Shown here piece by piece: positions 5,315 to 19,893 of a stretch of DNA of 64,000 nucleotides; the first letter of the stretch is position 1, and every line of letters starts with the position of its first letter. The DNA lies in contig DAIMEJ010000005.1 of assembly GCA_036725345.1 (NCBI GenBank), positions 19,717 through 83,716 on the forward strand, given 5' to 3'. A program made the position numbers and the translations under genes. The notes under the pieces are model-generated. The model was not told the origin of the DNA. It saw only the letters and a program-made list of their open reading frames with translations, and searched no databases. This DNA is from Syntrophales bacterium. GTDB taxonomy: Bacteria; Desulfobacterota; Syntrophia; Syntrophales; UBA2192.

Positions 5315-5893
5315 TTAAAGCGGATCCTTGGCTTTTGCCGACTTCTTTTTCTCGTCCTGTAATTTCCGGAGCCGGGTAAAAAGAGGGCCTTCCTCCCTCC
5401 ACATCCAGCAACTGTCCTTCAGGAGACCCGGGTCGTATTCGGAGGCCCGTTCACCCGTTGCGCCCTCGCGCCTCCGGCTGTGATAAGCCCAGTAGCCCTG
5501 TAGGGCTGCCGATCCCATTGCCAAAATCAGGTTCGTCAGGTGAAGACACCCCTCGACGCCGCCCAGGAGGGCCCTCACCTTCCTGGTAAATCCCGGCTTA
5601 ATCTTGAGTCCCATCAGTTTCTTCACGAAGGTTTCGATCTCGCGGCAACCGTCAATCGGGACATCGTTCATGACCGCCGTGGCCTCCTTGACCTCAAGAT
5701 CCGGCAGGGCAAGATCCAAGCGTACCGTCATCCGATGAACGATCCCCGGATCGAGATGCTGATCGCGCGAATAATAGTAAAAAGGGAAAAAACGCTCGTC
5801 GGTGAGTATACCCTCGATCTGGATCATTCCGTCATCCATTTCATAGGAATTCACGGTGATCACACGCGTGTGAATCTTTTCCTTCTTCCCCAA
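5315..5893 (-). CDS. DUF2889-like protein
   Basis: 192 aa. The motif LGGVEGCLHLTNLI and overall length resemble DUF2889, recalled from memory and not searched. Confidence 0.5.
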   Translation of the reverse strand: MGKKEKIHTRVITVNSYEMDDGMIQIEGILTDERFFPFYYYSRDQHLDPGIVHRMTVRLDLALPDLEVKEATAVMNDVPIDGCREIETFVKKLMGLKIKPGFTRKVRALLGGVEGCLHLTNLILAMGSAALQGYWAYHSRRREGATGERASEYDPGLLKDSCWMWREEGPLFTRLRKLQDEKKKSAKAKDPL

Positions 5894-6010
5894 ATCGATT
5901 CCCCTTTTCGATAAAGAAACTTGCTCTAATCATTCTGCCAATGCACCCCGCCTGCGCGGCAGCCGGGTGACCGTCCCTTTTGAACCGCCGTCCCTATAGC
6001 ACATTAATCG

Positions 6011-6038
6011 GCCCTCAACAAGAGAAAGAGGGCTTTTT
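6011..6038 (+). terminator. orphan terminator-like hairpin in a divergent intergenic region
   Basis: GCCCTC-aacaagagaaa-GAGGGC followed by TTTTT. There is no annotated plus-strand gene upstream. Confidence 0.35.
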
Positions 6039-6166
6039 GTAAACGCTCACCGGCGCAGAAATTCACGCGAATTCATATCGTTTCTCGAGGGTTACCTGTA
6101 GCACATGACCGTGACCTGTCCATGGCTGCTTGATTATAGATCAGAAATCATGGTAATAATGCCAAA

Positions 6167-7654
6167 ATGAAGTCCACCGGGAACGCCATGTGTTTCAAAA
6201 GTCGAATCACCAGATTTATTCTGGTCTTTCTTGCCTTTTGCAGTGCCGCTCTGTTTTTCCCGCTCGATGCGGGTGCGGAATTGACGCTGGAAGACGAGCG
6301 GAAACTCGGCAAGGAAATTTACGATAAGCTTGCCGGCCATGACCTTTTCCTGAAAAACCCCCGGGTGACCCGCTACGTCGAATCCGTCGGGTACCAAATC
6401 CTCGCCCAGAGCAAAAGGGTCCCCTTCGATTTTAAATTCTCCGTCATGAAGAGCAGCGCCATCAACGCCTTTGCCACCCCCGGGGGATACGTCTACGTCA
6501 ACACGGGGTTGATCCTCGTCGCGGAGAACGAGAGCGAATTCGCCAGCGTCATCGCCCATGAAATAGCCCATGCCAACGCGAGACATATCGCCGATATCAT
6601 CGAAAAATCCAAGAAGGTCAACGTTGCCACGCTGGCCGGGGTCCTCGCCGCGGCCGTCCTCGGGGGGGGAAGCCCGGAAGGCATGGCCGTCGCCACCTTC
6701 TCCCTGGCGGCGGGAACGAGCATGCAGCTCAAGTACACCCGTGACAACGAGGAAGAGGCGGACCGGTTCGGCATGGCCTACCTCACCGGCGCCGGATACG
6801 ACGCCCAGAGCATGCCGGACTTCCTGAAGGTCATGCGACGCAATGAGTTCTACTCCAATTCCATCCCTTCATACTTTCTCACCCACCCGGGGACCGACGA
6901 AAGAATCCGCTACCTGGACGGGCTGATTCAAACACGTTACAACCGGAGGGGCCACGAGGACATCATCGGGGGATTCCGTCGCATTCAGACGATCATTCGT
7001 CTTTCCGACAAAAATGAGCAATCCGCCCTGGCGTATTTCAAGAGCGAAGCGGAAAAGAACCCACGGGACGTGGATGCCCTCCTGGGTCTTGCCTCGACGC
7101 AGGCAAAACTCGGGCGGATGGATGAAGCCTTCACGAATTTCAACCGCGCCCTTCAGGTGTCGCCGAAGGATCCGGATGTGCTCCGGGGGCTCGGTAAAAG
7201 CCTCATCGATTCGGGAAGGGCCGCCGAGGCCGTGGGTGTCCTCGAGAAAGCTTACACCGTGGACGAGAATGATCTGGAAACCGCCATGGGTCTCGGACGG
7301 GCTTACGAGCAGACCGGAAACTACCAGGCGGCCCTTACCGTCTTTAAAAAAGCGGCAATAAAAAATCCCGACAATGAAAATATACCCTACCACCTTGCCA
7401 CCAATTACGGGCACCTCAATAACCCGGGAGAGTCGCACTATTTTTTCGGCATTCACTTCATGAAAAAGAAAAAAACAGACAGCGCCCTATTTCATTTCCG
7501 TGAGGCGCTCAAGTATGCTCCGCCCGGGAGCGCCAGGGCAGCGGACCTTCAGAAGTATATCGAGACGCTGAGCAAGAAAGAGCCCCCTAAGGCCGCCAAA
7601 CCGCAGGAGGGGCCTAGGAGACCGCGATTTATGTTTCCGCGCTCCACGAATTGA
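6167..7654 (+). CDS. M48-family Zn metalloprotease with C-terminal TPR repeats (BepA/YfgC-like)
   Basis: Signal peptide, HEIAHANARH (HExxH) motif and EEEADRFG, followed by TPR-like helical repeats. Confidence 0.85.
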   Translation: MKSTGNAMCFKSRITRFILVFLAFCSAALFFPLDAGAELTLEDERKLGKEIYDKLAGHDLFLKNPRVTRYVESVGYQILAQSKRVPFDFKFSVMKSSAINAFATPGGYVYVNTGLILVAENESEFASVIAHEIAHANARHIADIIEKSKKVNVATLAGVLAAAVLGGGSPEGMAVATFSLAAGTSMQLKYTRDNEEEADRFGMAYLTGAGYDAQSMPDFLKVMRRNEFYSNSIPSYFLTHPGTDERIRYLDGLIQTRYNRRGHEDIIGGFRRIQTIIRLSDKNEQSALAYFKSEAEKNPRDVDALLGLASTQAKLGRMDEAFTNFNRALQVSPKDPDVLRGLGKSLIDSGRAAEAVGVLEKAYTVDENDLETAMGLGRAYEQTGNYQAALTVFKKAAIKNPDNENIPYHLATNYGHLNNPGESHYFFGIHFMKKKKTDSALFHFREALKYAPPGSARAADLQKYIETLSKKEPPKAAKPQEGPRRPRFMFPRSTN

Positions 7655-7815
7655 AATGACCGCCTGAGAAAGATAGATTGAGTCGCTGTCTTCGAACCAC
7701 CGGCATCCGGCCGATCGGAGACAAAAAATCTTCAGGCCGGGTCAACTTTGTTGGACTTATCCGGACATTCATTGTCTGGGTACCCGGCCGGGATGATGCC
7801 ATGGGAGGTGCCAGC

Positions 7816-9673: not shown

Positions 9674-9708
9674 AAAAAAAGGGCCGCAAGCCAATAAACC
9701 CGCAGCCC
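9674..9708 (-). terminator. displaced chromosomal tRNA-Cys terminator
   Basis: On the minus strand, GGGCTGCG-loop-TGCGGCCC followed by TTTTTTT, lying just 3' of the partial tRNA-Cys copy. Confidence 0.55.
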
Positions 9709-9721
9709 TTTTACTTTATTA

Positions 9722-9769
9722 TGGAGGCGGCAACCGGATTCGAACCGGTGAATAACGGTTTTGCAGACC
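9722..9769. repeat. att direct repeat (partial 3' copy of tRNA-Cys)
   Basis: 48 nt identical base for base to 20300-20347 (tRNA-Cys CCA end through the anticodon loop). The sequences diverge at 9770 / 20348. Confidence 0.9.
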
Positions 9770-9878
9770 AATCTTTAGTGTTTAAACCTACCTGATTTCA
9801 ATAACCTTTCCACCCTGCCCTTTTTCCCGTGTTGTGAAAATTGATGGGACTTAATTTTTCGAATGATTAATCTAGATG

Positions 9879-10157
9879 CTATTGCTTTAATTCTTTATTT
9901 TGGATTAAATACCATGACTCATTGGTTAACCAACCCCAATAATTATATCCAATTTCTGATATTATGAATCGATCATTCGGTAATTTTTCATGCAATTTTT
10001 CAGCAATTGTTTTTGCATCGTATTCCGACAACAAATAAAAACAACTTCTCATGTCATATCGCCATGTGATGATTTCTTTTATTGAGTTGATAATATTCAC
10101 CAACTCATCTCGTTTTTCTATTGATCTATTGTGAACTAATAAATAGACCTTTCTCAT
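9879..10157 (-). CDS. hypothetical small soluble protein (cargo cassette gene 2)
   Basis: 92-aa ORF in a strongly AT-rich block. Its start overlaps the upstream gene stop (ATGA, 10154-10157). No family recognised. Confidence 0.6.
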   Translation of the reverse strand: MRKVYLLVHNRSIEKRDELVNIINSIKEIITWRYDMRSCFYLLSEYDAKTIAEKLHEKLPNDRFIISEIGYNYWGWLTNESWYLIQNKELKQ

Positions 10158-10525
10158 TGTCCCCTATACTCAATCGTTGGCGTTTGTGGTGTCTCAATGA
10201 CTTTAGATAAATCAATAGCAGATGGAGATGGTTCACCCTTTTGTTGCATCAATTCTAACGATATTTTCTTTAATTGATATTCTTCTGATTGCAATTTGTC
10301 TCTGTCAAAAATCAATAAAAATAGAAAGCCGAAAACCGCAGTGGCAGCTGGTAAACTCATCAAAATTATAAGCCATGTCGGAGTAGGTGCTGCTAACCAA
10401 CAGCTCAAGAAAATAGCCAGCGGTGTAATTATAGCGCATAGCCATAAGATAGGGTTTAAGGCGCTTCGGACGGTAAGTTTTCCGCCTGCGTCTATTACCC
10501 TCGTTAAGATCTGCCCTCTATCCAT
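10154..10525 (-). CDS. hypothetical two-TM membrane protein (cargo cassette gene 1)
   Basis: 123 aa with two hydrophobic helices (ILWLCAIITPLAIFLSCWLAA, WLIILMSLPAATAVFGFLFLLIF) and a charged C-terminal tail. AT-rich promoter-like region upstream. Confidence 0.6.
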   Translation of the reverse strand: MDRGQILTRVIDAGGKLTVRSALNPILWLCAIITPLAIFLSCWLAAPTPTWLIILMSLPAATAVFGFLFLLIFDRDKLQSEEYQLKKISLELMQQKGEPSPSAIDLSKVIETPQTPTIEYRGQ

Positions 10526-10706
10526 ATATCCTTTAAAATTAAAAAAATAATACTTAGCTTTATTAAGAAGAGTGTTTTATATAACAAAAACTTTGAAATA
10601 ATTCATGTTAATTTTATTATGATTTTATGAAGAGGGCATTATCTTTTTAATCCCCTTTTGAATTTAAATCCCCCCCTAAAAGTACATTAACCGCCGAAGT
10701 GCTTCC

Positions 10707-11804
10707 TCAAGAAGAAAAACTTTCTTTGACACTCTCCATCACGATAAGTTTAGTTTTGGAAATGTTATCTAACAATTTCACCGCATTTAGTTTATGGCCC
10801 GGAAGCGGATGCTGATACCTCAATGCCATCTTAATCGTCTTGTGTCCCATGATTTCCATGATCGTTTTCACATCAACCCCCGCCATGCCGAGCCGTGATC
10901 CGAAAGTGTGACGAAGGTCATGGAACCTGAACCGAACCTCTTTCAGTTCACCACGGACATTTTCGAAACGCTTTAACCCCGCCTTGTCTATTGCCGTCCA
11001 GAAGGCGTTAGTGAGGACGGTCAGCCTTTCCCCCTTTTCGTTGCAGAAAACATATTCGGATTTCTCGTCTTCGATGCGTTTTCTCAGGATAGCGATCGCC
11101 GTTGCGTTGATCGGCACATTGCGGCCCTCTGTGTTCTTGGTCACGGTGACGCTGACATAACGATCCTTCAGGCGCACATCCTGTACCCGCAGGTTCATGA
11201 TCTCCCCGAGCCTCATCCCCGTATTGAGGGCGAATGTGACCATGCCCGGAAGGTACTTCTCCCGTTGTGGTCGATCCTCGCAAGCCTGAATGAGCCTCTT
11301 TTCCTCTTCCGGGGTCAGTACCCACATCTTCTCGTTATCCTCTTTGAGCATCTTCACCCTGACAAGGGGATTGTGATTAAGCAGTTTCCACTCGACGGCC
11401 TTGTTGAGCATGTTCCGAAGCGTGGCGATGTCCCTGTTCACCGTCGCGGGGGCCTTCTTCCCTTCCCTTCTCGCCTTCCTGAATTGCTCCACGGAAAAGG
11501 GGGTGATGTCGCCGAGCATCTTCCCGTCGAAGTGCTTTTTCAGGGTGTCGATCGAAACCCCGTTGCGCTTCGCCGACCCCGGCTTCTTGTTTGCCCCGGC
11601 GTACTTCATGTACCGCTTCGCGAAATCATCAAAGAGGATTTTCTTGATCTTCGGCTTCCACTCCCCCTGAATGACCTCTTGCCTGCGTATGACGAGCTTC
11701 TCCTTCGCCACGGTCCTGCTCACCGGGCCGACACACTCGCTGTACCGCCTGCCGTCATAAACGAAATCTATGTAGTGACTTTTGCCTCTTTTATAGACGC
11801 CCAT
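10707..11804 (-). CDS. int: tyrosine-type site-specific integrase
   Basis: 365 aa with the C-terminal catalytic signature HDLRHTFGSRLGMAGVDVKTIMEIMGHKTIKMALRYQH and an upstream NTGMRLGEI Arg box. Confidence 0.95.
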   Translation of the reverse strand: MGVYKRGKSHYIDFVYDGRRYSECVGPVSRTVAKEKLVIRRQEVIQGEWKPKIKKILFDDFAKRYMKYAGANKKPGSAKRNGVSIDTLKKHFDGKMLGDITPFSVEQFRKARREGKKAPATVNRDIATLRNMLNKAVEWKLLNHNPLVRVKMLKEDNEKMWVLTPEEEKRLIQACEDRPQREKYLPGMVTFALNTGMRLGEIMNLRVQDVRLKDRYVSVTVTKNTEGRNVPINATAIAILRKRIEDEKSEYVFCNEKGERLTVLTNAFWTAIDKAGLKRFENVRGELKEVRFRFHDLRHTFGSRLGMAGVDVKTIMEIMGHKTIKMALRYQHPLPGHKLNAVKLLDNISKTKLIVMESVKESFSS

Positions 11805-11835
11805 ATAATCACCTTCCTTCTTTTTCGTAACTTCA

Positions 11836-12132
11836 TCATATCTTGTTGTTTTTTTCAGCTTTGTCCAATCTGTCTAATTCCTTTTCTAATTCATCCAGTA
11901 CTCCATCTAAATCACTTTTATTCATGCGTGCTTGCTTGAGTGCCTCCCTATGCGATTTTCCTTCTCTATAAATGTAGAACAGAATCAACGGCCAGAAAAT
12001 GATACCCAACAAAACAAAATGTAAGTTCCTTAAATCAATCTTTCTGTCAAAACCATGAGCTTGCGATTGTCGAATCTTATAATAAACAACTAATACCCCT
12101 ACGATTAACCATCCCAAGACAACCTTTGTCAT
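11836..12132 (-). CDS. hypothetical two-TM membrane protein with coiled-coil tail
   Basis: 98 aa with helices VVLGWLIVGVLVVYY and FVLLGIIFWPLILFYIY, then LDGVLDELEKELDRLDKAEK. AT-rich DNA. Confidence 0.55.
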   Translation of the reverse strand: MTKVVLGWLIVGVLVVYYKIRQSQAHGFDRKIDLRNLHFVLLGIIFWPLILFYIYREGKSHREALKQARMNKSDLDGVLDELEKELDRLDKAEKNNKI

Positions 12133-12319
12133 GGCACTGTCCCCCTAAATGCTTTGATTTCAAAATTTATCTTCTTTCTGTGAAACCCCTACCTATACAA
12201 AAAAGCCTGAGACCTTCCCCGGAGCATAAGCATCCGCCCAAGCGTCGCCGCCGTGGGGATCTCAGGCTTTCTAATCTTGTCCTGTTTCATTGCTTATGCC
12301 TCGGGAATTTAGTTTTATA

Positions 12320-12331
12320 AGTTATATAACT
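12320..12331. promoter_or_regulatory. perfect 12-bp palindrome, candidate operator
   Basis: AGTTATATAACT lies in the divergent intergenic region, 66 nt upstream of the RHH gene start. Confidence 0.3.
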
Positions 12332-12396
12332 ATATGCACCTATTAAATCAAGAAAAATTACGTTGCGGATAATACCGCGTTTCGGTATAAAAGGCC

Positions 12397-12567
12397 ATGT
12401 CAACCGAGTTGCCAAAAATCATTTTTCACCTTGATGAATCGTTACTGAAGCGCCTTGATGATTTCCGTTTCAAGCATCGCATCAATTTCAGGTCCGCCGC
12501 CATCCGACGCCTTCTCGAAGAAGCCTTGAAGAAATACGAGAAACGCTCGATGAAGAAAGGGGGATGA
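12397..12567 (+). CDS. ribbon-helix-helix (CopG/Arc/MetJ-like) DNA-binding protein
   Basis: 56-aa ORF below the track cutoff, translated by hand: MSTELPKIIFHLDESLLKRLDDFRFKHRINFRSAAIRRLLEEALKKYEKRSMKKGG. It shows a beta-strand-helix-helix pattern. Its stop is 4 nt before the next gene. Confidence 0.65.
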   Translation: MSTELPKIIFHLDESLLKRLDDFRFKHRINFRSAAIRRLLEEALKKYEKRSMKKGG

Positions 12568-12571
12568 TATA

Positions 12572-13048
12572 TTGAGGAAATATTTTACCCTTCTTTTCAT
12601 ATTTGCTGTCTTGACACCCACTAATCTTTTTGCGGCTGATTTCTATCTATATCTGGATAACTGCAAAGCCACCGTGGGATACCTCGTCGAATCCAAAGAA
12701 AATATCAAAACAGTTGATTTTGATGAAATGATCATTTCGTGTAGTAGAGTATCCCAGACAATTAAATGCGAAACGGTTTTTTTTGAAGGACAAAAAGCCA
12801 TTCAAGAGAAAAAGTTTGAATACTTCGTTGAGTTAGATTCTCCGCCGATTCTCATTTTCACCGACACAATACGGAGCGACTATTTCGTGGTAGATCTTAA
12901 TCAACACGCCGTGACAATGGTTTCACGAGTTTTGGGTGAAAAATTTGCAGGATCTAAAATTTGCACGGGCCTATATTTTACTGAGAGTGAAAGAAAATTG
13001 TTAGAAGAGAAGAAGCCCCGCACTCCTACCCCTACCCGCAAAAAATAA
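12572..13048 (+). CDS. hypothetical secreted protein
   Basis: 158 aa with a TTG start and signal peptide MRKYFTLLFIFAVLTPTNLFA. It has four Cys and a basic Pro/Thr tail. No family recognised. Confidence 0.55.
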   Translation: MRKYFTLLFIFAVLTPTNLFAADFYLYLDNCKATVGYLVESKENIKTVDFDEMIISCSRVSQTIKCETVFFEGQKAIQEKKFEYFVELDSPPILIFTDTIRSDYFVVDLNQHAVTMVSRVLGEKFAGSKICTGLYFTESERKLLEEKKPRTPTPTRKK

Positions 13049-13121
13049 TCGCCCTGAATCAATCCTGCGAAGCCCTGAATAGGCATTGACGCCCTGTCCC
13101 CGGAGTGGTATCAAATTCGAC

Positions 13122-13424
13122 ATGGATATTTCAGACCGTGATGACAATATAATCACCCTGCTCGCCTATTATCTGCACCTTGATGCGCTTAAAAAAGAGG
13201 GCCTCCTTGACAATGAATTGTTAATTAAATTTTATGAAAATTTAACTGACGAACAAAAGATGCATCTTGTTTTCTTCCAATACAAACAAATATCACTTGC
13301 TAACGAATGGAAGAAATTTCTTGAGAACCCCGAACCTAATATCAGCCGTTCCGAAGCCGTCCGTCGCACCTTTGATGAAGCCATGAAGAAATTCGAAGAA
13401 CGGATAAAAAAAACGGAAAAGTGA
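13122..13424 (+). CDS. hypothetical helical protein
   Basis: ORF 13086-13424. The ATG at 13122 (MDISDRDD...) is the likelier start. AT-rich, and no family recognised. Confidence 0.5.
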   Translation: MDISDRDDNIITLLAYYLHLDALKKEGLLDNELLIKFYENLTDEQKMHLVFFQYKQISLANEWKKFLENPEPNISRSEAVRRTFDEAMKKFEERIKKTEK

Positions 13425-13439
13425 GCCTCCTTTCCGCCC

Positions 13440-13544
13440 TCACCGCACCATAAACGAAAGAATCCAAAAGATCACAGCCGCCGTCACTATAAAGCAATAG
13501 ACGATCCCCGGCGGGCTTTTGATTAAGTCTCTGAAAGTCTCCAT
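13440..13544 (-). CDS. possible 34-aa single-TM peptide
   Basis: Hand translation METFRDLIKSPPGIVYCFIVTAAVIFWILSFMVR. Its ATG is 2 nt after the stop of the upstream HTH gene. Support comes only from position and hydrophobicity. Confidence 0.25.
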   Translation of the reverse strand: METFRDLIKSPPGIVYCFIVTAAVIFWILSFMVR

Positions 13545-13545
13545 G

Positions 13546-13857
13546 TCATTTCTCCGTTGATCCGTTCTGAATGAGGGCGATCACGCTCGACCTGAAGATA
13601 CGGATCATCTTCCCCGTCGGATTGATGCCCCTGATGATGCCCTCGTCCTGCCATTCATAAATTTTCTTGATGGACACCCTGAAGAAAGCCGCAACCTCTT
13701 TCGGCTTCAGGAGATCACGATCGGGAAGCCCTTCGATGCTTTTCAAAGAGTGCGCCGCCTTCCCCTGCCAATCTTTTTTTAGGGACGGCCCGGAAGAAAG
13801 GGGAAAAAACCGGGCCATCCCCCGGAAAAGAGGTGACGGTATCGCCTGCGCTAACAA
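13546..13857 (-). CDS. excisionase-type (HTH_17/MerR-like) DNA-binding protein
   Basis: C-terminal LLKPKEVAAFFRVSIKKIYEWQDEGIIRGI helix-turn-helix. The start may be the internal Met at 13818. Confidence 0.7.
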   Translation of the reverse strand: MLAQAIPSPLFRGMARFFPLSSGPSLKKDWQGKAAHSLKSIEGLPDRDLLKPKEVAAFFRVSIKKIYEWQDEGIIRGINPTGKMIRIFRSSVIALIQNGSTEK

Positions 13858-13929
13858 AGGGATTTAACCCCGCGCGGCACACAGGCGATTTTCCGCGCCC
13901 GTCATCACGGTCAAGACGCCGCGCTTAAC

Positions 13930-15225
13930 TTATGTGAGGATCGCGGCCCACGAAAGCGAATCCGATCCGTTTGCGGGCGTGATCGCCGACTTCCAGATCG
14001 AAACGCCGTCCGCACGCAGGCAGGCCCGCCACGAAATCAAGTCCTCGGACCATCTCGCGCTGTTCGTGCTTTCAAGCGTCACTTCCTGCCTCATGGCGAG
14101 GATATACTGCGAGAGATCGGCGCAGACCAGATCGCCCTTTGTCCCGAGGGCCGAGAGCCGATCGGACACGATCAAAGGCCTGCCTAAAATGCTCATCGCA
14201 AAATCGCCCTGAATGTTCCCGCCCGAGATCGGCCAGATCAGGCCGTTCGCATCGTCCTTCAATCTCAAAATTTGCAGAAAAGCCCCCGGAGAGCATATCC
14301 AGACAACATTCGTGAGAAGCGGGGGCCAGATGCGCGAGAGCATCGCGGTGATGTCCGCATATCCGATCGCTCCCGCCGTCGCCCTCGCGATGCTGACCGC
14401 CGAGGGGGAGTCGATAACGCCCAACGGCTGACCGACGCCGCTCCCGACGAGGATCGCCTTGTCAAGACCCCCGGCGATCGCCTGCACAAGAGCGCCGCCT
14501 AACTGTGTCCCGAAGTCGATCCCGTCCTGCACAAGCTCCCTCGACGCCGAGGCATAAACGATCAGTTTTTTCGGAGTGAGAAGGACGCTCGTTAGTTCCG
14601 GGGACACTTCGGTTGATGCCGTGGCCTCGGCGGTCCATGTCGCTTCGATGTTCCCGACTTCTCCCGTGGTCCGGTCGAAAGAGTTCCACAGGGGGAAGTT
14701 CGTGTCGCCTGTCACCGGGACGGTTCGGACATACTTTGCCGTCACGCTTTGCGCCGCGATCAGGTTGACAAGGGCCGCGGACCAAAATTCTGGCACAAGA
14801 AAACCTCCCAGAACGCCCCCGCCTGCGATGTTCGTCCTTCTCTCGACGGTCCCGGTCGCCACGGCGTTGCAGAAGTCGCTGAAGCTGTCATACCCACCGC
14901 GATCCTCGGACGGCCCGAAAAGCCGCCGATAGTCAAGGCCGATCTGACCGAGCCGGGGGATCGGATCGAGCGATCGGGTTGTTTTGGGCTGATGAAGCCG
15001 TCTGATCGGCTCATTATCCCTGCGATCCAGTTCGGCGAAGATTTCCTTTTCCTGTTTTTCGAGATCGCGGTATTTCTGATCCTCGGCCTCCGACAGTTCC
15101 CCGGCCTTCTCGCTGTCCGTGAGAATACGGCTCATGCGATGCAGGATGTCCCCGCGATTCTCCCTCAATTCCGCGTCTGACATTTTCTTGAAATCTGGGT
15201 TCGTTGTTTCGGTGCGTGCTTTCAT
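13930..15225 (-). CDS. phage major capsid protein, HK97 family
   Basis: 431 aa. Charged coiled-coil N-terminal (delta-like) segment, then GGFLVPEFW, SRELVQDGIDF, GSGVGQPLGV and ILGRPLIVSD blocks typical of the Phage_capsid/HK97 family. GGAGG RBS. Confidence 0.9.
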   Translation of the reverse strand: MKARTETTNPDFKKMSDAELRENRGDILHRMSRILTDSEKAGELSEAEDQKYRDLEKQEKEIFAELDRRDNEPIRRLHQPKTTRSLDPIPRLGQIGLDYRRLFGPSEDRGGYDSFSDFCNAVATGTVERRTNIAGGGVLGGFLVPEFWSAALVNLIAAQSVTAKYVRTVPVTGDTNFPLWNSFDRTTGEVGNIEATWTAEATASTEVSPELTSVLLTPKKLIVYASASRELVQDGIDFGTQLGGALVQAIAGGLDKAILVGSGVGQPLGVIDSPSAVSIARATAGAIGYADITAMLSRIWPPLLTNVVWICSPGAFLQILRLKDDANGLIWPISGGNIQGDFAMSILGRPLIVSDRLSALGTKGDLVCADLSQYILAMRQEVTLESTNSARWSEDLISWRACLRADGVSIWKSAITPANGSDSLSWAAILT

Positions 15226-15261
15226 TTATCCTCCATTGAAGGTTGAATTTGCCTTCCACAC

Positions 15262-15329
15262 CGACCACAAAATAAAAAACGGGCGTTGCCTTCCTTATCC
15301 CTCCTCAGAGGGGGAAAGCACGCCCGTTT
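15262..15329 (-). terminator. strong intrinsic terminator immediately upstream of the capsid gene
   Basis: On the minus strand, AAACGGGCGT...(inner CCCCCTCtgagGAGGG)...ACGCCCGTTT followed by TTTATTTT. It lies between the 95-aa ORF stop (15387) and the MCP start (15225). Confidence 0.7.
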
Positions 15330-15386
15330 CAATTTCATGGCGGCTTCTATGTTCTTTTTTATTCATATCACATCCTGACCTGATAT

Positions 15387-15674
15387 TCAATCGGAATCAT
15401 CATGACGCCGCTTTTTCGGCATCTCATAATCATAATAGGCGCGGGGCTTCTCGTCGGCCTTCAGGGTCACGAACACGCCGGGGAGCCGGGGCTTCCCCGC
15501 AAGGCCCATGAGATAGGCGCGGTTCGCAAACCATCTTTCCCTGCGCTCGGAATCGTCGCGGAAGGGATAGCCACCGCCCAAGTGCCAGCCAGCCAATAAA
15601 TGCGCCGTCTGAAACGGGGTCAGACCGGAATCATTCAGGCGTTCGATTTTTTTCTTGACGGGCTTCCTCGGCAT
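15387..15674 (-). CDS. hypothetical protein (95 aa)
   Basis: Trimmed from ORF 15387-15845 to the ATG at 15674, which follows GAGGAT and lies 10 nt after the terS stop. No family recognised. Confidence 0.5.
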   Translation of the reverse strand: MPRKPVKKKIERLNDSGLTPFQTAHLLAGWHLGGGYPFRDDSERRERWFANRAYLMGLAGKPRLPGVFVTLKADEKPRAYYDYEMPKKRRHDDSD

Positions 15675-15684
15675 ATTCTGATCC

Positions 15685-16014
15685 TCACTTATAAAGTCCC
15701 GGCGGGCGGCTCTCGGGGATGCTCCCGAGATCGATCGCGATCTCGCGGACGGCCCGCAGGAATCCGATCCGCGATTGCTGAATGATCTTCGTCCCGGGAT
15801 GCTCCACAAGCCCGCCGTATCGGTTCCTGATGAACATCCCGTCACTTTCGATCGCCTTCATCGCCTGATCCTCATCGTCGAGAAAAAGGCACGCCCGCTC
15901 AAGACGGGCGAGATCGTGAGCGTCCCTGATCTCAAATTCTTTAAGAACGGCTATCCAGAATTTTCGGCCCGCTTCCTTCAGGGTCGAAGGCGGCTCCGGT
16001 TTGTCAATCGTCAT
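15685..16014 (-). CDS. phage terminase small subunit, P27 family
   Basis: 109 aa. The pattern GRKFWIAVLKEFEIRDAHDLARLERACLFLDDEDQAMKAI...GGLVEHPG resembles Terminase_4 (P27) small subunits. Confidence 0.8.
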   Translation of the reverse strand: MTIDKPEPPSTLKEAGRKFWIAVLKEFEIRDAHDLARLERACLFLDDEDQAMKAIESDGMFIRNRYGGLVEHPGTKIIQQSRIGFLRAVREIAIDLGSIPESRPPGLYK

Positions 16015-16117
16015 ACATACTCCCTCAATCGCTTTGAACAGGGTGAAAACGCACTAAGCGGACAGACCGGGAGCGTTATACGACGGAAAGTTTTTCGAAA
16101 GTCGATGCCCCCCGGCG

Positions 16118-16339
16118 TCATTGAATAAGCCTCGGTTTCCCGTCAATGCCCTGTTCCTCAAGTTCCTGTGCGGCTCTGTCCACAAGATATTGCCCGATGA
16201 TGCCGACGATCCCCTGAAGCGTTATCGCCGCGTTTTGCAGGCCTTCGAGATCGCCCTTTGCCATGAAGCCGTTCACCCACGCCGCGATCCGCTCGACCTC
16301 TTTTCGGTTCTCACGCATGAATTTGTCTGGTTTGTCCAT
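16118..16339 (-). CDS. hypothetical protein (73 aa)
   Basis: ORF sits in operon position between the primase and terS. No family recognised. Confidence 0.5.
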   Translation of the reverse strand: MDKPDKFMRENRKEVERIAAWVNGFMAKGDLEGLQNAAITLQGIVGIIGQYLVDRAAQELEEQGIDGKPRLIQ

Positions 16340-16412
16340 GTTCGTTCCTCTCTGTTTTTTTTAGATTCGCCCCGGCCCGATTCCGTGCGCTCAGACAAGA
16401 TTTCCCTTGTGG

Positions 16413-18428
16413 TTATCCTTCCCGGCTCGGGAAAGGGACACTCGTTGAACATCTGCGCCCCTGTGCGATAATAGGACGCAACGGCTCAAATTGAAGTTTT
16501 GCCCCCCGTGGATTCCGAAACCGGATATGCTGACCCTCGGGCAACCGGATGTCATCAACGATATACCGGACCTTCTTCAGAATGACATAGCCGTCGATGC
16601 CGCCCTGCTCTTTCCACATCGTCATGTGAATTGTCGCCGCATACTCGCTCTGTTGTTTTCCCTTTGCGGTATTCACGCCCTCGTCCTTCTGGATGGCGAC
16701 CAATACCACGCCGCTTCCGACCCTGCTTTTCATCCGTCTTAGATAGGTGTCCAGATTCGGATAATCGTCCGGGCTGAATTGAAACCAATCCAGAATGTTT
16801 ATGGCGTCGGGGACGATCAGGTCGGGATAATCGGCGGCAGGACGGGCGACTTCTTCACGGAAGTGGAAACGCCAATCATTCATCAGGCGGTGAAACCGTG
16901 GATCGGCTTCCTGTTCGAAACGGCGCAGATAGATGTTCACCTCATGCCGATTCAGTTCGGTCGATGTATAGACAATCCGGTGATCGTGGTCGTTCAATCG
17001 GATGAAGTTAAAGAAATAGGTTGATTTCCCTGACCCCGGCTCACCCGCAAGGACGATGAGCGAACCGGGATGGATGTCGGCATATTCGTGAAACCCGCCG
17101 GGAAGGGCGAGGCTGATAGGCTCTACCTGCTCTACATTCCGATAATCCACGAAACCGATGTGCGACAAAACCCGCCGATAAGCCCCGGCCCTCTGCGGAT
17201 GCCGTTCCGCATCGCCCCTCTGCACGGCACGGTGCAGATATGTTTTCGTCCTCACCGTCTTAATTCCCGTCCACCGGGAAACCTCGTCAATGGTCGTCCA
17301 CTTCCCTTCGTTTGCGAGGCAATCCAGAATCTTCCCATAATCAGAAGGCTGTGACCTGAATTGTGACTTCGAGTGACCGTCACAGGGTTGCTGTGACCTG
17401 TTTTCGTCGGCAGTTTCGTTCAAGTCCCCGAAATCATTAGAGGCGGCATTTTTTTCGGGCGTTTCGTCAGCCTGTGACCTGCGTGCGTGCGTATTAAAAG
17501 ATATATTTATATATTCCACATGTGGTGACTGATCCTCTGCGGTATCATCGCCGGGAGCTTGTGACACATTTTGTGACAGGTAACGCCTTGCCCTCTTGAT
17601 CTCATCGGCAAGCCAACGGTGACGGCCCCCGCCCTTCCCCCGGTACTTCAGGCCGCAGGGATAATTCTCGAAGATGTGATAGACGGCCCCCGGCTCTGCG
17701 CCCTGTGACAGCATGGAGCATATCAGGGCGAACCCCGCTTCGGATCGCGAGGGGTACTTCCCGATCGCCCCTTCCGTGACGAAAGCCCGAAGGTCATCCG
17801 AAAAAGTGAAGTCCTCGGGATCGACCTCGACGGGGTTGCCCAGTTCCATGTCGTTGTCGCCGTCGGCTTCCTCGTCTGCGGCAAGGCCCAGAAACCACTC
17901 GGGCGCCTCGGCGATCCGCACATCGAGCGATATTTCATACAGCTTCCCCGTGTCCGGGTGAACAGAGCCGGGAGCGACCACGCATCCCCCGTCGGCCCTG
18001 ATGTCGAAGCCGTGTTCCTTGAACGTCCGGTTGCGGTATCGCGTGCCGTTCTTCGGGTAGCGGAAGTAGTAGTGAAACTTTCCCGATCCTGTCATGACCT
18101 CAAGCGTGGTCGGGAGTCTCCACTTCTGACCCTCGGCGTACTTCCGAAACCGATCAAGATCGTCAATATCGAGAACGATCAGGCCCGATGCGGGACCGCA
18201 GGCGATCCCGGCGTTCTTGCCGATGTACTCACAGCCGTGAAACGGCCTTTGCTCCCTGCACCACTTCTGCCAATCGCTTTCGAAGGGAGCCTTGCCGATG
18301 AGCGGTATTAGGGAAAGGTCTCTCTCGTCGTGTAGCTCCCGCCACAGCAAGGGCGATTTATTTTCTGCGAGTGTTCCGACCTGCTCGGGCGTCAAGTCTT
18401 TCCACTTCCTTTCCGGTTGTTCGTTCAT
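16413..18428 (-). CDS. bifunctional PrimPol-type primase / P-loop replicative helicase
   Basis: Start trimmed to the ATG at 18428, preceded by GGAGGTGG. The N-terminal Prim-Pol pattern is GKAPFESDWQKW...GIACGPASGLIVLDIDD. A low-complexity linker and a wHTH-like segment follow, then Walker A LAGEPGSGKST and a RecA/DnaB-like C-terminal domain. Confidence 0.85.
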   Translation of the reverse strand: MNEQPERKWKDLTPEQVGTLAENKSPLLWRELHDERDLSLIPLIGKAPFESDWQKWCREQRPFHGCEYIGKNAGIACGPASGLIVLDIDDLDRFRKYAEGQKWRLPTTLEVMTGSGKFHYYFRYPKNGTRYRNRTFKEHGFDIRADGGCVVAPGSVHPDTGKLYEISLDVRIAEAPEWFLGLAADEEADGDNDMELGNPVEVDPEDFTFSDDLRAFVTEGAIGKYPSRSEAGFALICSMLSQGAEPGAVYHIFENYPCGLKYRGKGGGRHRWLADEIKRARRYLSQNVSQAPGDDTAEDQSPHVEYINISFNTHARRSQADETPEKNAASNDFGDLNETADENRSQQPCDGHSKSQFRSQPSDYGKILDCLANEGKWTTIDEVSRWTGIKTVRTKTYLHRAVQRGDAERHPQRAGAYRRVLSHIGFVDYRNVEQVEPISLALPGGFHEYADIHPGSLIVLAGEPGSGKSTYFFNFIRLNDHDHRIVYTSTELNRHEVNIYLRRFEQEADPRFHRLMNDWRFHFREEVARPAADYPDLIVPDAINILDWFQFSPDDYPNLDTYLRRMKSRVGSGVVLVAIQKDEGVNTAKGKQQSEYAATIHMTMWKEQGGIDGYVILKKVRYIVDDIRLPEGQHIRFRNPRGAKLQFEPLRPIIAQGRRCSTSVPFPSREG
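17348..17580. other. origin-of-replication-like iteron cluster with AT-rich core, inside the primase coding sequence
   Basis: CTGTGACCTG occurs perfectly at 17348, 17390 and 17471. TGTGAC cores are at 17361, 17559 and 17571. GTGACCGTCAC palindrome at 17372-17382. A 24-nt almost pure A/T run spans 17491-17514. CCACATGTGG palindrome at 17515-17524. Confidence 0.5.
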
Positions 18429-18526
18429 ATCCACCTCCGAAATGGATGTCCGATAGTCAAGGCGCGGGGAGCGGGTCGGAGTTCCCGCCGTCAGCCGATC
18501 GAGCCTACCCCGCACCCATTTTGCCG

Positions 18527-19480
18527 TCACGATAGAAGCCGCTTTTTGTCTTGTTCGTTGTCTGATTCGTGGCGATTTCTATCTCCGTCCAGTTCTGCAA
18601 ATTGTCTCAGGAGCCGAGCCTTCCCTGCGTCAAAACTAAGCCTTGCCGATGTCCCTTCGTATATGTCCGAATTGAAAGTTTCCCTGCGAACAACCAAATG
18701 GTCTATCTGGTCACTCAAGCGCGGCATCATGTCGGCAACATACTGAATGAATGAACCGAACGGTTGTATTTGATAAAGCTTTCCGTCTTGCCCTGTGTCG
18801 GTTGTCTGTTCTGCTTTCTGTTCAACGAAAACATCCATCCGCCTGATTATAATTTGAGCTAACGTTCTTGCCCGTTCAAATGTAGCTTCCTTCCAATTCT
18901 TCGGCGGCTCTTTAGGAAGGATCAAAAGAACCCGTTCAAGCGTTTCAATATAAATCTGCGCTTCAAGGCTATCTTCTATCGAAGATGCTTTGCTTTTCGA
19001 TTGCTCTTTTCTCTGCTTTTCTTTCTCGTAATTTATGGCATTGATAACGGCGGTCTTTGTCGGGATGTCCTCGTTCTCCCTCGCCTGCGCTTTTATTTTC
19101 TCCACCACAGCCGGGTTCTCGGAAATGGCTCGGGCCTGATGCGCTCGCTTATGGTCTATGCCTTCGGGAAGCACTTTTGATGGTGTACCCTTCGGGACAC
19201 CTTTCCGTCCGGTCATCGCTTTATCCCTGCTCGGCAATAGCTCACCGATGCGGCCTTCAATATCGAGAAGAAGTTCCCCCGCATCCTGACCGTCTTTCAG
19301 CGTGGCCTTTCGCTGTTCTTCTGCCATACCTAACTTGTCCATCGCCTTGACCTTCGCCCGGTAATAACTGACAGCCGCTTGCCCAATGAATGACAACGGC
19401 ACAAGGTCATCCAGTTTTCCGGGCAGTAGCTTCTGCGCCTTCACCAGTTTGAAAATCTCTGTGGCTTCTTTTCCCTTCAT
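18527..19480 (-). CDS. hypothetical protein (317 aa)
   Basis: Start trimmed to the ATG at 19480, after AAGGGGG. Charged, helical, and no family recognised. Sits between the AlpA-like gene and the primase. Confidence 0.55.
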   Translation of the reverse strand: MKGKEATEIFKLVKAQKLLPGKLDDLVPLSFIGQAAVSYYRAKVKAMDKLGMAEEQRKATLKDGQDAGELLLDIEGRIGELLPSRDKAMTGRKGVPKGTPSKVLPEGIDHKRAHQARAISENPAVVEKIKAQARENEDIPTKTAVINAINYEKEKQRKEQSKSKASSIEDSLEAQIYIETLERVLLILPKEPPKNWKEATFERARTLAQIIIRRMDVFVEQKAEQTTDTGQDGKLYQIQPFGSFIQYVADMMPRLSDQIDHLVVRRETFNSDIYEGTSARLSFDAGKARLLRQFAELDGDRNRHESDNEQDKKRLLS

Positions 19481-19505
19481 GGTATGCCCCCTTCTTTTTC
19501 TTTTT

Positions 19506-19700
19506 TTATTCCTTGACAACCTCGTTGAGCTTCACACCCGGCGATGCATCGGCCCACGATTCGATTTCGTCACGGAAAAAAATTAACCGTCCACCCGCCT
19601 TCCTGAATGGGATCCGTCGGCGAAGCACAAGGTTCCTGACGGCTCCCGGTGTCCGGTGGAGATAATTGCTCACATGCTGTACCAACCAAATTTCACGCAT
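19506..19700 (-). CDS. AlpA/excisionase-type HTH regulator
   Basis: 64 aa. IWLVQHVSNYLHRTPGAVRNLVLRRRIPFRKAGGRLIFFRDEIESW fits the HTH_17 pattern. Confidence 0.7.
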   Translation of the reverse strand: MREIWLVQHVSNYLHRTPGAVRNLVLRRRIPFRKAGGRLIFFRDEIESWADASPGVKLNEVVKE

Positions 19701-19893
19701 CGGGAAAGATTTCCTTCTCGTCGCAGGTGAGAAGCTTCGCCCACTTCCTGCGTTGCTCTGCCGTCAGAACCTTCCGTCCCCGCAGGACGCGGGACACATC
19801 GGCTTCGTGGATTCCGACCTCGCGTGCAAACTCCCATTGTGACCCGTGGGTTTCGATGATCCGGGCCTTCAGCTTCCTGTTCACATCCTTCAT
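19693..19893 (-). CDS. Cro/XRE-like HTH regulator
   Basis: 66 aa. SQWEFAREVGIHEADVSRVLRGRK is a helix-turn-helix. AGGAG RBS. First gene of the minus-strand operon. Confidence 0.7.
   Translation of the reverse strand: MKDVNRKLKARIIETHGSQWEFAREVGIHEADVSRVLRGRKVLTAEQRRKWAKLLTCDEKEIFPDA

What the first reader, a model, noticed from the sequence alone, without database searches (positions are those of the whole stretch)
9770..10706. AT-rich two-gene cassette (2-TM protein + small soluble protein) between the integrase and the att site: candidate undescribed defence/exclusion module
Immediately inside the att repeat and downstream of int lies a block whose base composition is visibly far more AT-rich than both the element backbone and the chromosome (not computed). 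It holds two translationally coupled ORFs (ATGA overlap at 10154-10157). One is a 123-aa protein with two TM helices and a charged tail, and the other is a 92-aa soluble protein rich in aromatic residues (WRYDMRSCFYLL, YNYWGWLTNESWYL). I recognise neither as any known family. A long AT-rich promoter-like region (10526-10706) gives the cassette its own expression signals. In P4-like satellites and PICIs, variable positions near int or the att ends are known hotspots for anti-phage cargo. Small membrane effector plus soluble partner is a recurring layout for abortive-infection, superinfection-exclusion and toxin-antitoxin modules.
Basis: inference. Interest (0 to 1): 0.7.

Follow-up and report, generated by a model that had tools for sequence, protein, structure and literature searches.

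The report
Mobile membrane-plus-partner two-gene cassette
A 914-base AT-rich insertion carrying a small two-helix membrane protein and a tightly coupled small soluble protein has landed inside the end of a satellite's integrase gene; the same unannotated gene pair recurs in many bacterial phyla, phages, integron cassettes and a plasmid, which makes it a good but untested candidate for a new toxin-antitoxin or phage-defence module.

Summary
Two minus-strand genes overlap at ATGA: A (10154-10525, 123 aa, two TM helices) and B (9879-10157, 92 aa). They lie in a block of 33% GC, against 52% in the element and 55-59% in the chromosome.

New here:
- The block is a discrete 914-bp insertion (9853-10766) inside the 3' end of int. 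The original int tail survives downstream of B.
- A and B are a conserved pair. Every intact A is followed by B: 32/32 species genomes from at least 14 phyla, 13/13 viral contigs and one plasmid.
- Their sequence distances co-vary, and the pair is nearly always lower in GC than its host.
- About 14% of loci are integron cassettes (attC sites, integron integrases).
- In 24 of 30 related tRNA-Cys elements the int-att junction is empty. Others carry different cargo there, including a SocA/Panacea antitoxin gene and a GNAT gene.

Neither protein matches Pfam (above threshold), NCBIfam, PADLOC or PDB sequences. Both match only PHROGs of unknown function. B is a high-confidence ferredoxin-like fold, closest to Cas2/VapD-like BPSL1038. 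It is not a GhoS member.

Neighbours elsewhere are mostly housekeeping genes, not defence islands.

Best reading, by inference: a selfish or defensive membrane-effector plus cytosolic-partner module (TA/abortive-infection-like). Function is untested.

The parts
9853..10766 (-). 914-bp AT-rich insertion (the cassette): own upstream region, gene A, gene B and 26 nt of trailer
   Evidence: GC is 0.333, against 0.519 for the rest of the element. The boundaries come from comparing related integrases, whose coding sequence runs straight from ...LD into EVP.... The boundary is ambiguous by 1-2 nt (AA microhomology).
10154..10525 (-). Gene A: 123-aa inner-membrane protein. It has an N-terminal helix, the conserved motif GGKLxVxSALNPxLW, two TM helices, the invariant motif DRDKLQSE-YQ on a long cytosolic helix, and a disordered tail.
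   Evidence: ORF. 531 homologues at about 50-60% identity across phyla. Invariant columns. AF2 pLDDT 71. Charge distribution indicates N-in/C-in topology. phrog_27377 at 7e-13. Only a sub-threshold Pfam PrgI match.
9879..10157 (-). [quoted passage not shown] Its start overlaps the stop of A (ATGA).
   Evidence: ORF. AF2 pLDDT 95.2. 261 homologues found with a profile. 703 clusters at 50% identity in the exhaustive search. Invariant residues W32 R33 D35 Y41 G75 L77 W82. phrog_1090 and phrog_32103.
10526..10766 (-). 241-nt upstream part of the insert. It holds the likely promoter region and also supplies a new 19-codon tail and stop codon to int (10707-10766).
   Evidence: Sequence. One sigma-70-like match at 10650-10622 on the minus strand, not above chance. 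AAAGGA Shine-Dalgarno before A. No Rfam family.
9788..9850 (-). Displaced remnant of the original 3' end of int, encoding VPSIFTTREKGQGGKVIEIR*
   Evidence: Translation. Homologous to the C-terminal tails of related integrases, such as EVPPFFTPLEKEGEKKVVNLRR* in L094 and L105, at both nucleotide and protein level.
10707..11804 (-). Tyrosine integrase of the element. Its last about 21 codons were replaced by insert-encoded sequence.
   Evidence: Pfam Phage_integrase 2e-36 and phrog_1 5e-73. Tail comparison.
9723..9769 (-). att repeat: a copy of the 3' part of tRNA-Cys. Its partner is at 20301-20347, inside tRNA-Cys 20300-20375.
   Evidence: Exact 47-nt repeat, none expected by chance. ARAGORN. 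Rfam partial tRNA match.
9677..9712 (-). Terminator-like hairpin just beyond the att copy. It is the first terminator-like site downstream of B.

Best explanation
SHOWN. The region is a 0.9-kb horizontally acquired cassette that inserted into the 3' end of the integrase gene of a 10.5-kb tRNA-Cys-integrated, satellite-like element. That element encodes int, an HTH_17 protein, a Prim-Pol/helicase, an HK97-type capsid protein and a small-terminase-like protein. The cassette carries a translationally coupled gene pair that behaves as one evolutionary unit across at least 14 phyla. The pair also occurs in phage-like viral contigs, in integron cassette arrays and on one plasmid.

INFERRED, how it most likely works:
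1. A inserts into the inner membrane as an N-in/C-in hairpin. Its two invariant juxtamembrane segments (GGKLxVxSALNP and DRDKLQSE-YQ) face the cytoplasm.
2. A is the effector. When unrestrained, it self-associates and damages or depolarises the membrane.
3. B is made in fixed proportion through the ATGA coupling. It is the cytosolic partner that holds A in check. It could do so by binding the conserved cytosolic face of A, or, as in GhoS, by acting on the A mRNA.
4. B may also serve as the sensor. The conserved aromatic and charged residues on its beta-sheet (Y5, W32-R33-Y34-D35, F40-Y41) form a plausible ligand- or nucleic-acid-binding face.
5. Loss of the cassette, or a phage-induced disturbance of B, would free A and arrest or kill the cell.
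6. This would stabilise whatever element carries the pair, and it could abort phage infection.
For: Pair conservation. B follows every intact A: 32/32 species-representative genomes, 13/13 viral contigs, 4/4 further loci and 1/1 plasmid. The gap is -4 or -1 nt in nearly all cases.

Co-inheritance. The A and B identity matrices correlate (r = 0.53). None of 1000 permutations reached that value.

Decay pattern fits a harmful A. The two loci that lack B (L043, L052) also have a truncated A. L036 has a premature stop in A while B is intact.

Foreign origin and mobility:
- The pair's GC is below that of its flanks in 35 of 37 loci, by up to 28 points.
- In the window it is a discrete insertion splitting int.
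- It is an integron cassette in L008, L041, L006, L035, L038 and L042.
- It sits at moron-like positions in viral contigs.
- It lies next to an Abi family gene on plasmid pXBB1-6.

Same niche as other cargo. Related elements carry a SocA/Panacea antitoxin gene, a GNAT gene (with a weak HicA-like ORF) or DUF3800 at the same int-att junction.

Structure. A has two TM helices with conserved cytosolic motifs. B is a confident ferredoxin-like fold, and its best TM-score (0.67/0.71) is to the Cas2/VapD-like nuclease BPSL1038 (PMC10491678).

Precedent. A two-TM toxin paired with a Cas2-like small antitoxin is known as GhoT/GhoS (PMC4010927).
Against: - No toxicity, binding or phage phenotype has been measured. 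The roles assigned to A and B are inferred.
- There is no hit to any PADLOC defence model and no homology to a known TA family.
- B has no recognisable DNA-binding domain of the kind most type II antitoxins use.
- B lacks the conserved Asp after beta-1 that Cas2/VapD nucleases use. That position is D/E in only 47% of sequences.
- The gene order, putative toxin first, is the less common one.
- Immediate neighbours in chromosomes are mostly housekeeping genes, not defence islands.
- The pair is very rare on plasmids: 1 of 72,556 records. It is absent from 50,697 isolated phage genomes.
- The ferredoxin-like fold is generic. All Foldseek E-values are above 1e-3.
Confidence: 0.45

Rival explanations
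1. Non-toxic superinfection exclusion. A and B form a membrane-associated complex that blocks phage DNA entry or a membrane step of infection without harming the host, as prophage Sie proteins do.
For: The pair is carried by a satellite (the window), by prophage-like viral contigs, once directly after an integrase at a contig end (L064), and at moron-like sites among phage structural genes. A is an inner-membrane protein.
Against: Most copies sit in chromosomes with no phage genes nearby or in integron arrays. The conserved parts of A face the cytoplasm, and its outward loop is only about 6 uncharged residues, leaving little surface to meet an incoming phage. The decay pattern, in which A is never intact without B, is not predicted by this model.
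Confidence: 0.15
2. Type V-like toxin-antitoxin in the strict sense. B is a Cas2-fold endoribonuclease that cleaves the A part of the bicistronic mRNA, as GhoS does to ghoT.
For: [quoted passage not shown] The best structural match of B is a Cas2/VapD-like nuclease (PMC10491678; PMC4010927). Conserved aromatic residues lie on beta-1, beta-2 and beta-3.
Against: hhalign of the B profile against GhoS (2LLZ) gives a probability of 1.8%. There are no Pfam GhoS or GhoT matches. There is no conserved acidic residue after beta-1. The gene order is the reverse of ghoST, and A is twice the size of GhoT with conserved cytosolic motifs that an mRNA-level antidote would not explain.
Confidence: 0.1
3. An accessory physiological function unrelated to genetic conflict. 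For example, B could be a small ACT/PII-like ligand-binding regulator that controls a membrane protein involved in ion or small-molecule homeostasis or envelope stress. The pair would then spread simply because it is useful.
For: B's fold also resembles PII-like, HMA and MgtC-C-terminal (ACT-like) domains. Soluble small regulators paired with membrane proteins are common. Integron cassettes carry many non-defence adaptive genes. Neighbours are mostly housekeeping genes.
Against: A has only two TM helices and no transporter signature. The pair has no conserved neighbours or regulators and has a patchy, phylum-hopping, low-GC distribution. It occurs in phages, a satellite and beside an Abi gene. 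At the same junction, related elements carry TA-type genes.
Confidence: 0.2
4. A is a distant PrgI/VirB3-like type IV secretion component, and the pair is a remnant of a conjugation module.
For: Weak Pfam PF12666 (PrgI) matches occur for the window protein (6.5e-4, 20.6 bits) and for 18 of 76 family members at E <= 0.01, over nearly the whole profile length.
Against: All matches are below the gathering score of 27 bits. No type IV secretion genes lie near the pair in any of about 45 loci. The similarity can be explained by a shared two-TM architecture.
Confidence: 0.03

Closest known systems
GhoT/GhoS type V toxin-antitoxin system (E. coli)
   Same: A bicistronic pair of a small two-TM membrane-damaging protein and a soluble protein of about 95-100 aa with a Cas2-like ferredoxin fold. 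Chromosomal and horizontally mobile.
   Different: No sequence relation: hhalign probability 1.8%, and no Pfam GhoS or GhoT match. The gene order is reversed. A is 123 aa rather than 57 aa and has invariant cytosolic motifs. RNase activity of B is unknown.
BPSL1038 / Cas2 / VapD nuclease fold group
   Same: [quoted passage not shown] Its best PDB TM-score is 0.67/0.71 over 86 columns, to 7vxr.
   Different: Foldseek E is 3.7e-3 with 10% identity. The catalytic Asp after beta-1 and the SST turn of BPSL1038 (PMC10491678) are not conserved in B. The fold is shared with many unrelated families (HMA, PII-like, ACT).
Cargo at the int-att junction of related tRNA-Cys elements (SocA/Panacea antitoxin gene with a partner ORF; GNAT acetyltransferase gene with a weak HicA-like ORF; DUF3800; DUF6941)
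   Same: Same insertion niche, similar size (0.5-1.3 kb), and in most cases AT-rich relative to the element.
   Different: Unrelated protein families. None of the 57 related loci that were searched carries A or B.
Integron gene cassettes encoding TA or phage-defence functions
   Same: In about 14% of loci the pair is a cassette. It is followed by a canonical attC (L008, L035, L038, L042), sits in arrays (L006, L042), or lies next to an integron integrase (L008, L041). Its compact size and own upstream region are typical of TA cassettes.
   Different: The window copy has no attC and was not inserted at a GTT site. Most copies are outside integrons.
Abortive-infection systems with a membrane effector and a cytosolic sensor (RexAB; two-TM effectors of CBASS, Pycsar and retrons)
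   Same: The proposed logic: a soluble sensor or regulator controlling a small membrane-disrupting protein.
   Different: No homology and no signalling enzyme. Both proteins are much smaller. No PADLOC match.

Membership tests
Known anti-phage defence systems (PADLOC-DB v2.0.0) | Match of at least one component to a system HMM | tested here: not met
   No family at E <= 1 for A, B, int or the neighbouring 98-aa ORF. Systems described after 2023 are not covered.
Known anti-phage defence systems | Family members lie preferentially inside defence islands | tested here: inconclusive
   Among 146 ORFs within +-2 genes in about 40 loci, defence or TA-type neighbours are scattered: an RM system, DUF4917/bSEFIR, SoFic, HipA, BrnT, and Abi on a plasmid. 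Most neighbours are housekeeping genes. Gene calling was crude, only +-2 genes were scanned, and there was no background rate.
Toxin-antitoxin module (generic) | Two adjacent co-transcribed small genes that always co-occur and spread by horizontal transfer | tested here: met
Toxin-antitoxin module (generic) | One product is toxic and the other neutralises it | not testable with these tools
   The only indirect hint is that A is never intact without B, and that A is a pseudogene with B intact in L036.
Type II TA | Antitoxin with a DNA-binding domain (HTH, RHH, AbrB or Phd-type) for autoregulation | tested here: not met
   Neither protein has such a Pfam domain. B folds as a ferredoxin-like domain.
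GhoS (type V antitoxin) | Sequence or profile similarity to GhoS | tested here: not met
   hhalign probability 1.8% against 2LLZ. No Pfam match.
GhoS (type V antitoxin) | Cas2-like ferredoxin fold | tested here: inconclusive
   The fold class is met, but it is generic. 2LLZ was not among the 50 listed Foldseek matches.
GhoT / small membrane toxins | Sequence similarity to GhoT/OrtT, or a short (<60 aa) purely hydrophobic peptide | tested here: not met
   No Pfam match. A is 123 aa with about 70 non-membrane residues.
Cas2/VapD nucleases | Conserved catalytic Asp at the end of beta-1 | tested here: not met
   Position 11 is D/E in 47% of 86 sequences, and it is Arg in the window protein.
Integron gene cassette | attC recombination site (R'' RYYYAAC ... 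R' GTTRRRY hairpin) immediately 3' of the genes | tested here: not met
   In the window, only 26 nt separate the B stop from the int remnant, and there is no attC-like site in the non-coding parts of the insert. The feature is met in relatives L008, L035, L038 and L042: 4 of 43 loci, against 7 of 860 control windows.
Holin/antiholin or lysis cassette | Adjacency to endolysin or spanin genes in a phage lysis module | tested here: not met
   No lysis genes lie next to the pair in the window or in the viral contigs. In L053-L062 it lies between the portal and major head genes. One of the 76 A-family members has a Phage_holin_3_6 match, at 0.0068.
PrgI family (PF12666) | Score above the Pfam gathering threshold (27 bits) | tested here: not met
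   20.6 bits for the window protein. 18 of 76 members match at E <= 0.01, and none was reported above threshold.
Phage satellite (PICI / cfPICI-like) as the carrier | A small integrated element with int, an AlpA/HTH regulator, a primase-type replication gene and some packaging or capsid genes, but no full virion gene set | tested here: met
   10.5 kb between the att copies. Int, HTH_17, Prim-Pol with a P-loop, Phage_capsid, and a weak Terminase_4 match. Induction by a helper phage is not testable here.

The most novel reading that the evidence does not exclude
A and B constitute a previously undescribed, phylum-spanning two-gene conflict system (abortive infection and/or addiction). A small RRM/Cas2-like cytosolic protein would gate a two-TM membrane effector through the effector's invariant DRDKLQSE juxtamembrane helix. 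The system would circulate between integron cassette pools, phages and satellites, and it can insert without any dedicated recombinase site.
Probability: 0.35. Interest if true: 0.7.

Novelty: new variant of a known kind. Interest (0 to 1): 0.55.

Why it matters
If the pair proves to be a toxin-antitoxin or abortive-infection module, it would add a very compact family (about 650 bp of coding sequence) with no detectable relatives among known systems.

- A's two juxtamembrane motifs are invariant across the 76 aligned family members, which come from many phyla. That makes them an unusually clean target for mutational and structural work on how small membrane effectors are held in check.
- The finding links three cargo pools that are usually studied separately: satellite int-att hotspots, phage morons and integron cassettes. 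The same gene pair occurs in all three.
- The window gives a dated, base-pair-resolved insertion event. The integrase tail was displaced but preserved. This can be used to study how such cassettes move without attC or transposase functions.

If the pair has no conflict function, it is still a widespread conserved unit with no functional annotation (no Pfam or NCBIfam family).

Tried and rejected
- Pfam, NCBIfam and PADLOC on both proteins gave no family above threshold. Pfam on all family members added nothing further.
- tblastn against 50,697 isolated phage genomes gave nothing. Against 72,556 plasmids it gave one hit.
- A PDB sequence search with both profiles gave nothing.
- Foldseek of B against PDB and BFVD returned only generic ferredoxin-like matches, all with E > 1e-3. 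Foldseek of A returned nothing.
- Domain fusions of B in 1.84 billion representative proteins were uninformative. Longer proteins carry only low-complexity or unknown tails.
- The idea of a conserved third gene or upstream regulator was rejected. The XRE-type HTH just upstream of A is confined to one viral-contig group, and the 93-aa upstream ORF in Marinifilum is unique to that genome.
- k-mer counts found no conserved terminal sequences or inverted repeats of the cassette across loci. Within the window, repeats are at chance level.
- My first attC scan was too permissive: 10% of control windows scored positive. I replaced it with a stricter one.
- Some repeats flanking the pair turned out not to be attC. 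L019 has REP/RAYT elements, and L025 has a duplicated gene 5' end.
- Integron-type insertion at a secondary GTT site in the window was rejected from the junction sequences.
- GhoS membership was rejected.
- Literature searches for the motifs WRYDM, DRDKLQSE and SALNPILW returned no papers.
- L012-L015, first taken for alternative contexts of the identical protein, are the same locus as the window.
Full report
**1. The observation**

The region holds two minus-strand ORFs: A (10154..10525, 123 aa) and B (9879..10157, 92 aa). They share the four bases ATGA. Purine-rich ribosome-binding sites precede both, AAAGGA before A and AGGGGA before B.

GC is 0.33-0.36 in 400-nt windows across 9801-10800, against 0.50-0.62 on either side.

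The neighbouring gene 10707..11804 is a tyrosine integrase (Pfam Phage_integrase, 2e-36). Bases 9723-9769 are an exact 47-nt copy of the 3' part of tRNA-Cys(GCA) at 20300-20375. The integrated element therefore spans about 9770-20300 (10.5 kb).

The element also encodes an HTH_17 protein, an HK97-type capsid protein, a weak small-terminase match and a Prim-Pol/P-loop protein. That is a satellite-like gene set.

Exact protein matches show the window comes from a Syntrophales MAG. The same locus was assembled from several samples.

**2. The cassette is a discrete insertion that split the integrase**

I fetched 75 metagenomic loci and one viral locus that encode integrases mostly 50-60% identical to this one.

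The tRNA-Cys att fragment could be located in 30 of these loci. In 24 of them it begins about 75-105 nt after the end of the integrase match (30 nt in L108). In nine loci examined in detail, that is 13-32 nt after the stop codon.

In the window this distance is 937 nt. The integrase homology runs to the codons ...KLLD (ending at 10767) and then breaks. It resumes at 9852: bases 9850-9788 translate to VPSIFTTREKGQGGKVIEIR*. This matches the normal C-terminal tails of relatives, for example EVPPFFTPLEKEGEKKVVNLRR* in L094 and L105.

So 914 bp (9853-10766, +-2 nt because of AA microhomology) were inserted into the int 3' end. The insert gives int a new 19-residue tail and stop codon, and it displaced the old tail, which is still readable.

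The insert has GC 0.333, against 0.519 for the rest of the element and 0.55-0.59 for the chromosome.

It carries no attC site, no terminal inverted repeats above chance and no Rfam family. The junctions do not fit integron-type recombination at a GTT. How it was inserted is unknown.

**3. The int-att junction is a cargo hotspot**

None of the related loci carries A or B. Five distinct relatives have other insertions at the same junction:
- L097/L111: a SocA/Panacea antitoxin gene (3.5e-18) with a 150-aa partner ORF.
- L091: a GNAT acetyltransferase, preceded by a weak HicA-like ORF.
- L134: DUF3800.
- L125: DUF6941.
- L106: a small coiled-coil membrane protein.

Most of these inserts are also AT-rich relative to the integrase gene.

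**4. A and B are a conserved pair**

A has 531 database homologues, typically 50-60% identical, and none has a Pfam domain on record. B alone retrieved only itself through the word index. A profile built from the genes downstream of A homologues found 261 proteins. An exhaustive profile search found 703 clusters at 50% identity.

A pattern scan of one genome per species gave 37 loci. They come from Bacteroidota, Ignavibacteria, Alpha-, Beta- and Gammaproteobacteria, Spirochaetia, Acidobacteriota, Binatia, Verrucomicrobiota, Zixibacteria, Planctomycetota, Nitrospinota, Nitrospirota and Bdellovibrionota.

Of the 35 loci with downstream DNA:
- 32 have an intact A immediately followed by B. The gap is -4 nt in most, and L046 carries a divergent B.
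- One (L036) has a premature stop in A with B intact.
- Two (L043, L052) have a truncated A and no B.

All 13 IMG/VR contigs with A also have B. So do four further loci and the single plasmid hit.

Pairwise identities of A and of B across 41 loci are correlated (r = 0.53, with 0 of 1000 permutations as high). The two genes therefore travel together.

The pair has lower GC than its surroundings in 35 of 37 loci, by at least 5 points in 29 and by up to 28 points.

**5. Where the pair sits elsewhere**

Immediate neighbours (146 ORFs within two genes) share no recurrent family. MnmE appears twice and everything else once, including one integrase. Most are housekeeping genes.

Defence or TA-type neighbours occur but are scattered:
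- a DpnII-type RM system (L005);
- DUF4917 (L004);
- BrnT (L006);
- SoFic and HipA;
- an Abi family gene 69 nt upstream of the pair on Acinetobacter johnsonii plasmid pXBB1-6.

A tyrosine recombinase lies within 8 kb in only five distinct loci (L001, L008, L029, L041, L064). A tRNA or tmRNA lies close in four.

In the viral contigs the pair occupies accessory positions:
- between the portal and major-head genes, next to an HNH gene and a group-specific XRE regulator (L053-L062);
- upstream of the terminase (L063);
- directly after an integrase at a contig end (L064), as in the window.

**6. An integron connection**

In L008 the pair is the first unit after a divergently oriented integron-integrase fragment (TIGR02249, 6.7e-62). 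It is followed by a canonical attC, CCCTAAC...GTTAGAT.

In L041 a full-length recombinase lies 3.3 kb upstream on the other strand. It is 36% identical to that fragment, and the pair there is followed by a near-canonical attC.

L006 is an array in which a 30-nt palindromic repeat separates small units, including a BrnT cassette and A-B. L042 shows a recurring R''-type repeat.

A strict attC scan was positive in 4 of 43 loci, against 7 of 860 control windows.

The window's closest relatives among the species loci include L006, L008 and L038. The cassette pool of integrons is thus one vehicle for this pair, though not the one that delivered it here.

**7. The proteins**

*Protein A.* It has an N-terminal helix, an invariant GGKLxVxSALNPxLW segment, two TM helices joined by a 6-residue uncharged loop, an invariant DRDKLQSE-YQ motif that opens a long helix to about residue 96, and a variable disordered tail. 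The charge distribution places both ends, and so all conserved polar motifs, in the cytoplasm. Its only database resemblance is a sub-threshold match to Pfam PrgI, seen in 18 of 76 members and never reported above the gathering score. It has no structural match.

[quoted passage not shown] Foldseek gives only generic ferredoxin-like matches (HMA, PII-like, ACT-like). The best TM-score, 0.67/0.71, is to BPSL1038, a Cas2/VapD-like nuclease (PMC10491678). Invariant residues cluster on the sheet: W32, R33, D35 and Y41, with the near-invariant Y5, Y34, F40 and S44. G75, L77 and W82 are also invariant. The Asp after beta-1 that Cas2/VapD enzymes use is not conserved. Longer relatives of B have only low-complexity extensions.

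**8. Interpretation**

The following are shown directly: a compact, self-contained, horizontally mobile gene pair; its precise insertion in this window; its strict pairing; and its occurrence in a satellite, viral contigs, integron cassettes and a plasmid.

The function is inferred. The layout is a small membrane protein with a translationally coupled small soluble partner. Several observations point to a conflict module in which A is the membrane effector and B its cytosolic restraint and/or sensor:
- the selfish-element-like distribution;
- the TA-type cargo at the same junction in sister elements;
- the decay pattern, in which A is never intact without B.

The nearest precedent in architecture is GhoT/GhoS, a two-TM toxin with a Cas2-fold antitoxin (PMC4010927). 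B is not a GhoS homologue (hhalign probability 1.8%). I give this reading 0.45.

The alternatives are:
- a non-toxic exclusion complex (0.15);
- a strict type V mechanism (0.10);
- a non-conflict accessory function (0.20);
- a PrgI-like secretion remnant (0.03).

**9. Novelty and limits**

Neither protein belongs to a family in Pfam, NCBIfam, PADLOC v2 or the PDB. Literature searches for their motifs found nothing. Systems published after 2023 that are absent from these libraries cannot be excluded.

The neighbourhood analysis used crude ORF calling and only +-2 genes. The genome scan relied on two peptide patterns, so it undercounts divergent members. No experiment or complex prediction was possible.

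Noticed in passing
window 9788-9850 (-) and 10707-10766 (-): The cassette insertion split the integrase gene. The original 21-codon tail (VPSIFTTREKGQGGKVIEIR*) is preserved downstream of B, and int now ends in 19 insert-encoded residues (NISKTKLIVMESVKESFSS*). The intact old tail suggests a recent event. Whether the altered integrase still works is unknown.
   Followed up: yes
L008 4915-6726; L041 3637-8720; L006 4323-7428; L035, L038, L042 just after B: In a minority of genomes the A-B pair is an integron gene cassette, with attC sites, arrays, one integron-integrase fragment and one full-length recombinase related to it. A strict attC scan was positive in 4 of 43 loci against 7 of 860 control windows.
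   Followed up: partly
L091 7050-8376; L097 1072-2399 (= L111); L106 581-1139; L125 301-846; L134 1670-2947: Related tRNA-Cys elements carry different cargo at the same int-att junction: a SocA/Panacea antitoxin gene plus a 150-aa partner ORF, a GNAT gene with a weak HicA-like ORF, a CCDC90-like membrane protein, DUF6941 and DUF3800. In 24 of 30 loci the junction is empty.
   Followed up: yes
window 11800-13450: The same element has a second low-GC block (0.36-0.44) between int and the HTH_17 gene. It holds four small ORFs with no Pfam family: 11836-12132 (-) of 98 aa with hydrophobic segments, 12397-12567 (+) of 56 aa, 12572-13048 (+) of 158 aa with a hydrophobic N-terminus, and 13086-13424 (+) of 112 aa. 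This may be a second cargo region.
   Followed up: partly
L077 1967-7177; L080 3562-6677; L084 468-5934: Relatives of the element bounded by two tRNA-Cys att copies are only 3-5.4 kb long, much smaller than the 10.5-kb element in the window. The integrase family therefore serves a range of minimal integrative elements.
   Followed up: no
L025 7785-7878 and 8712-8805; L045 7775-7932 and 8689-8847: In two genomes the pair is bracketed by direct repeats that are not attC sites. L025 has a 94-nt duplication (86% identical) that reads like the 5' end of a coding sequence, possibly a sulfatase-type gene; this was judged by eye and not checked. L045 has a 122-159-nt repeat (95% identical) that includes a start-codon region. 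These may be footprints of the insertion mechanism.
   Followed up: no
L036 8001-8351; L043 3404-3700; L052 7998-8180: Three decayed copies were found. L036 has an in-frame stop inside the SALNPxLW motif of A while B is intact. L043 and L052 have a truncated A and no B. No intact A without B was seen.
   Followed up: yes
L144 (NZ_CP010357.1) 5889-7689: On the 13.3-kb Acinetobacter johnsonii plasmid pXBB1-6 the pair lies 69 nt downstream of an annotated Abi family protein, on the same strand. The three may form one operon.
   Followed up: no
window 9677-9722 and 20257-20300: The sequence just beyond the tRNA-Cys 3' end is similar at both ends of the element. There is a terminator-like hairpin at 9677-9712, and 88.7% identity over 97 nt between the two ends, including the 47-nt att repeat. 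The element's attP side therefore carries more tRNA-flank homology than the 47-nt core.
   Followed up: no
L019 8667-8822, 10077-10232: In Sedimenticola the pair is followed by a 156-nt repeat that recurs 1.4 kb downstream. It looks like a REP hairpin plus the start of a REP-associated transposase-like ORF. This identification is by eye only.
   Followed up: no
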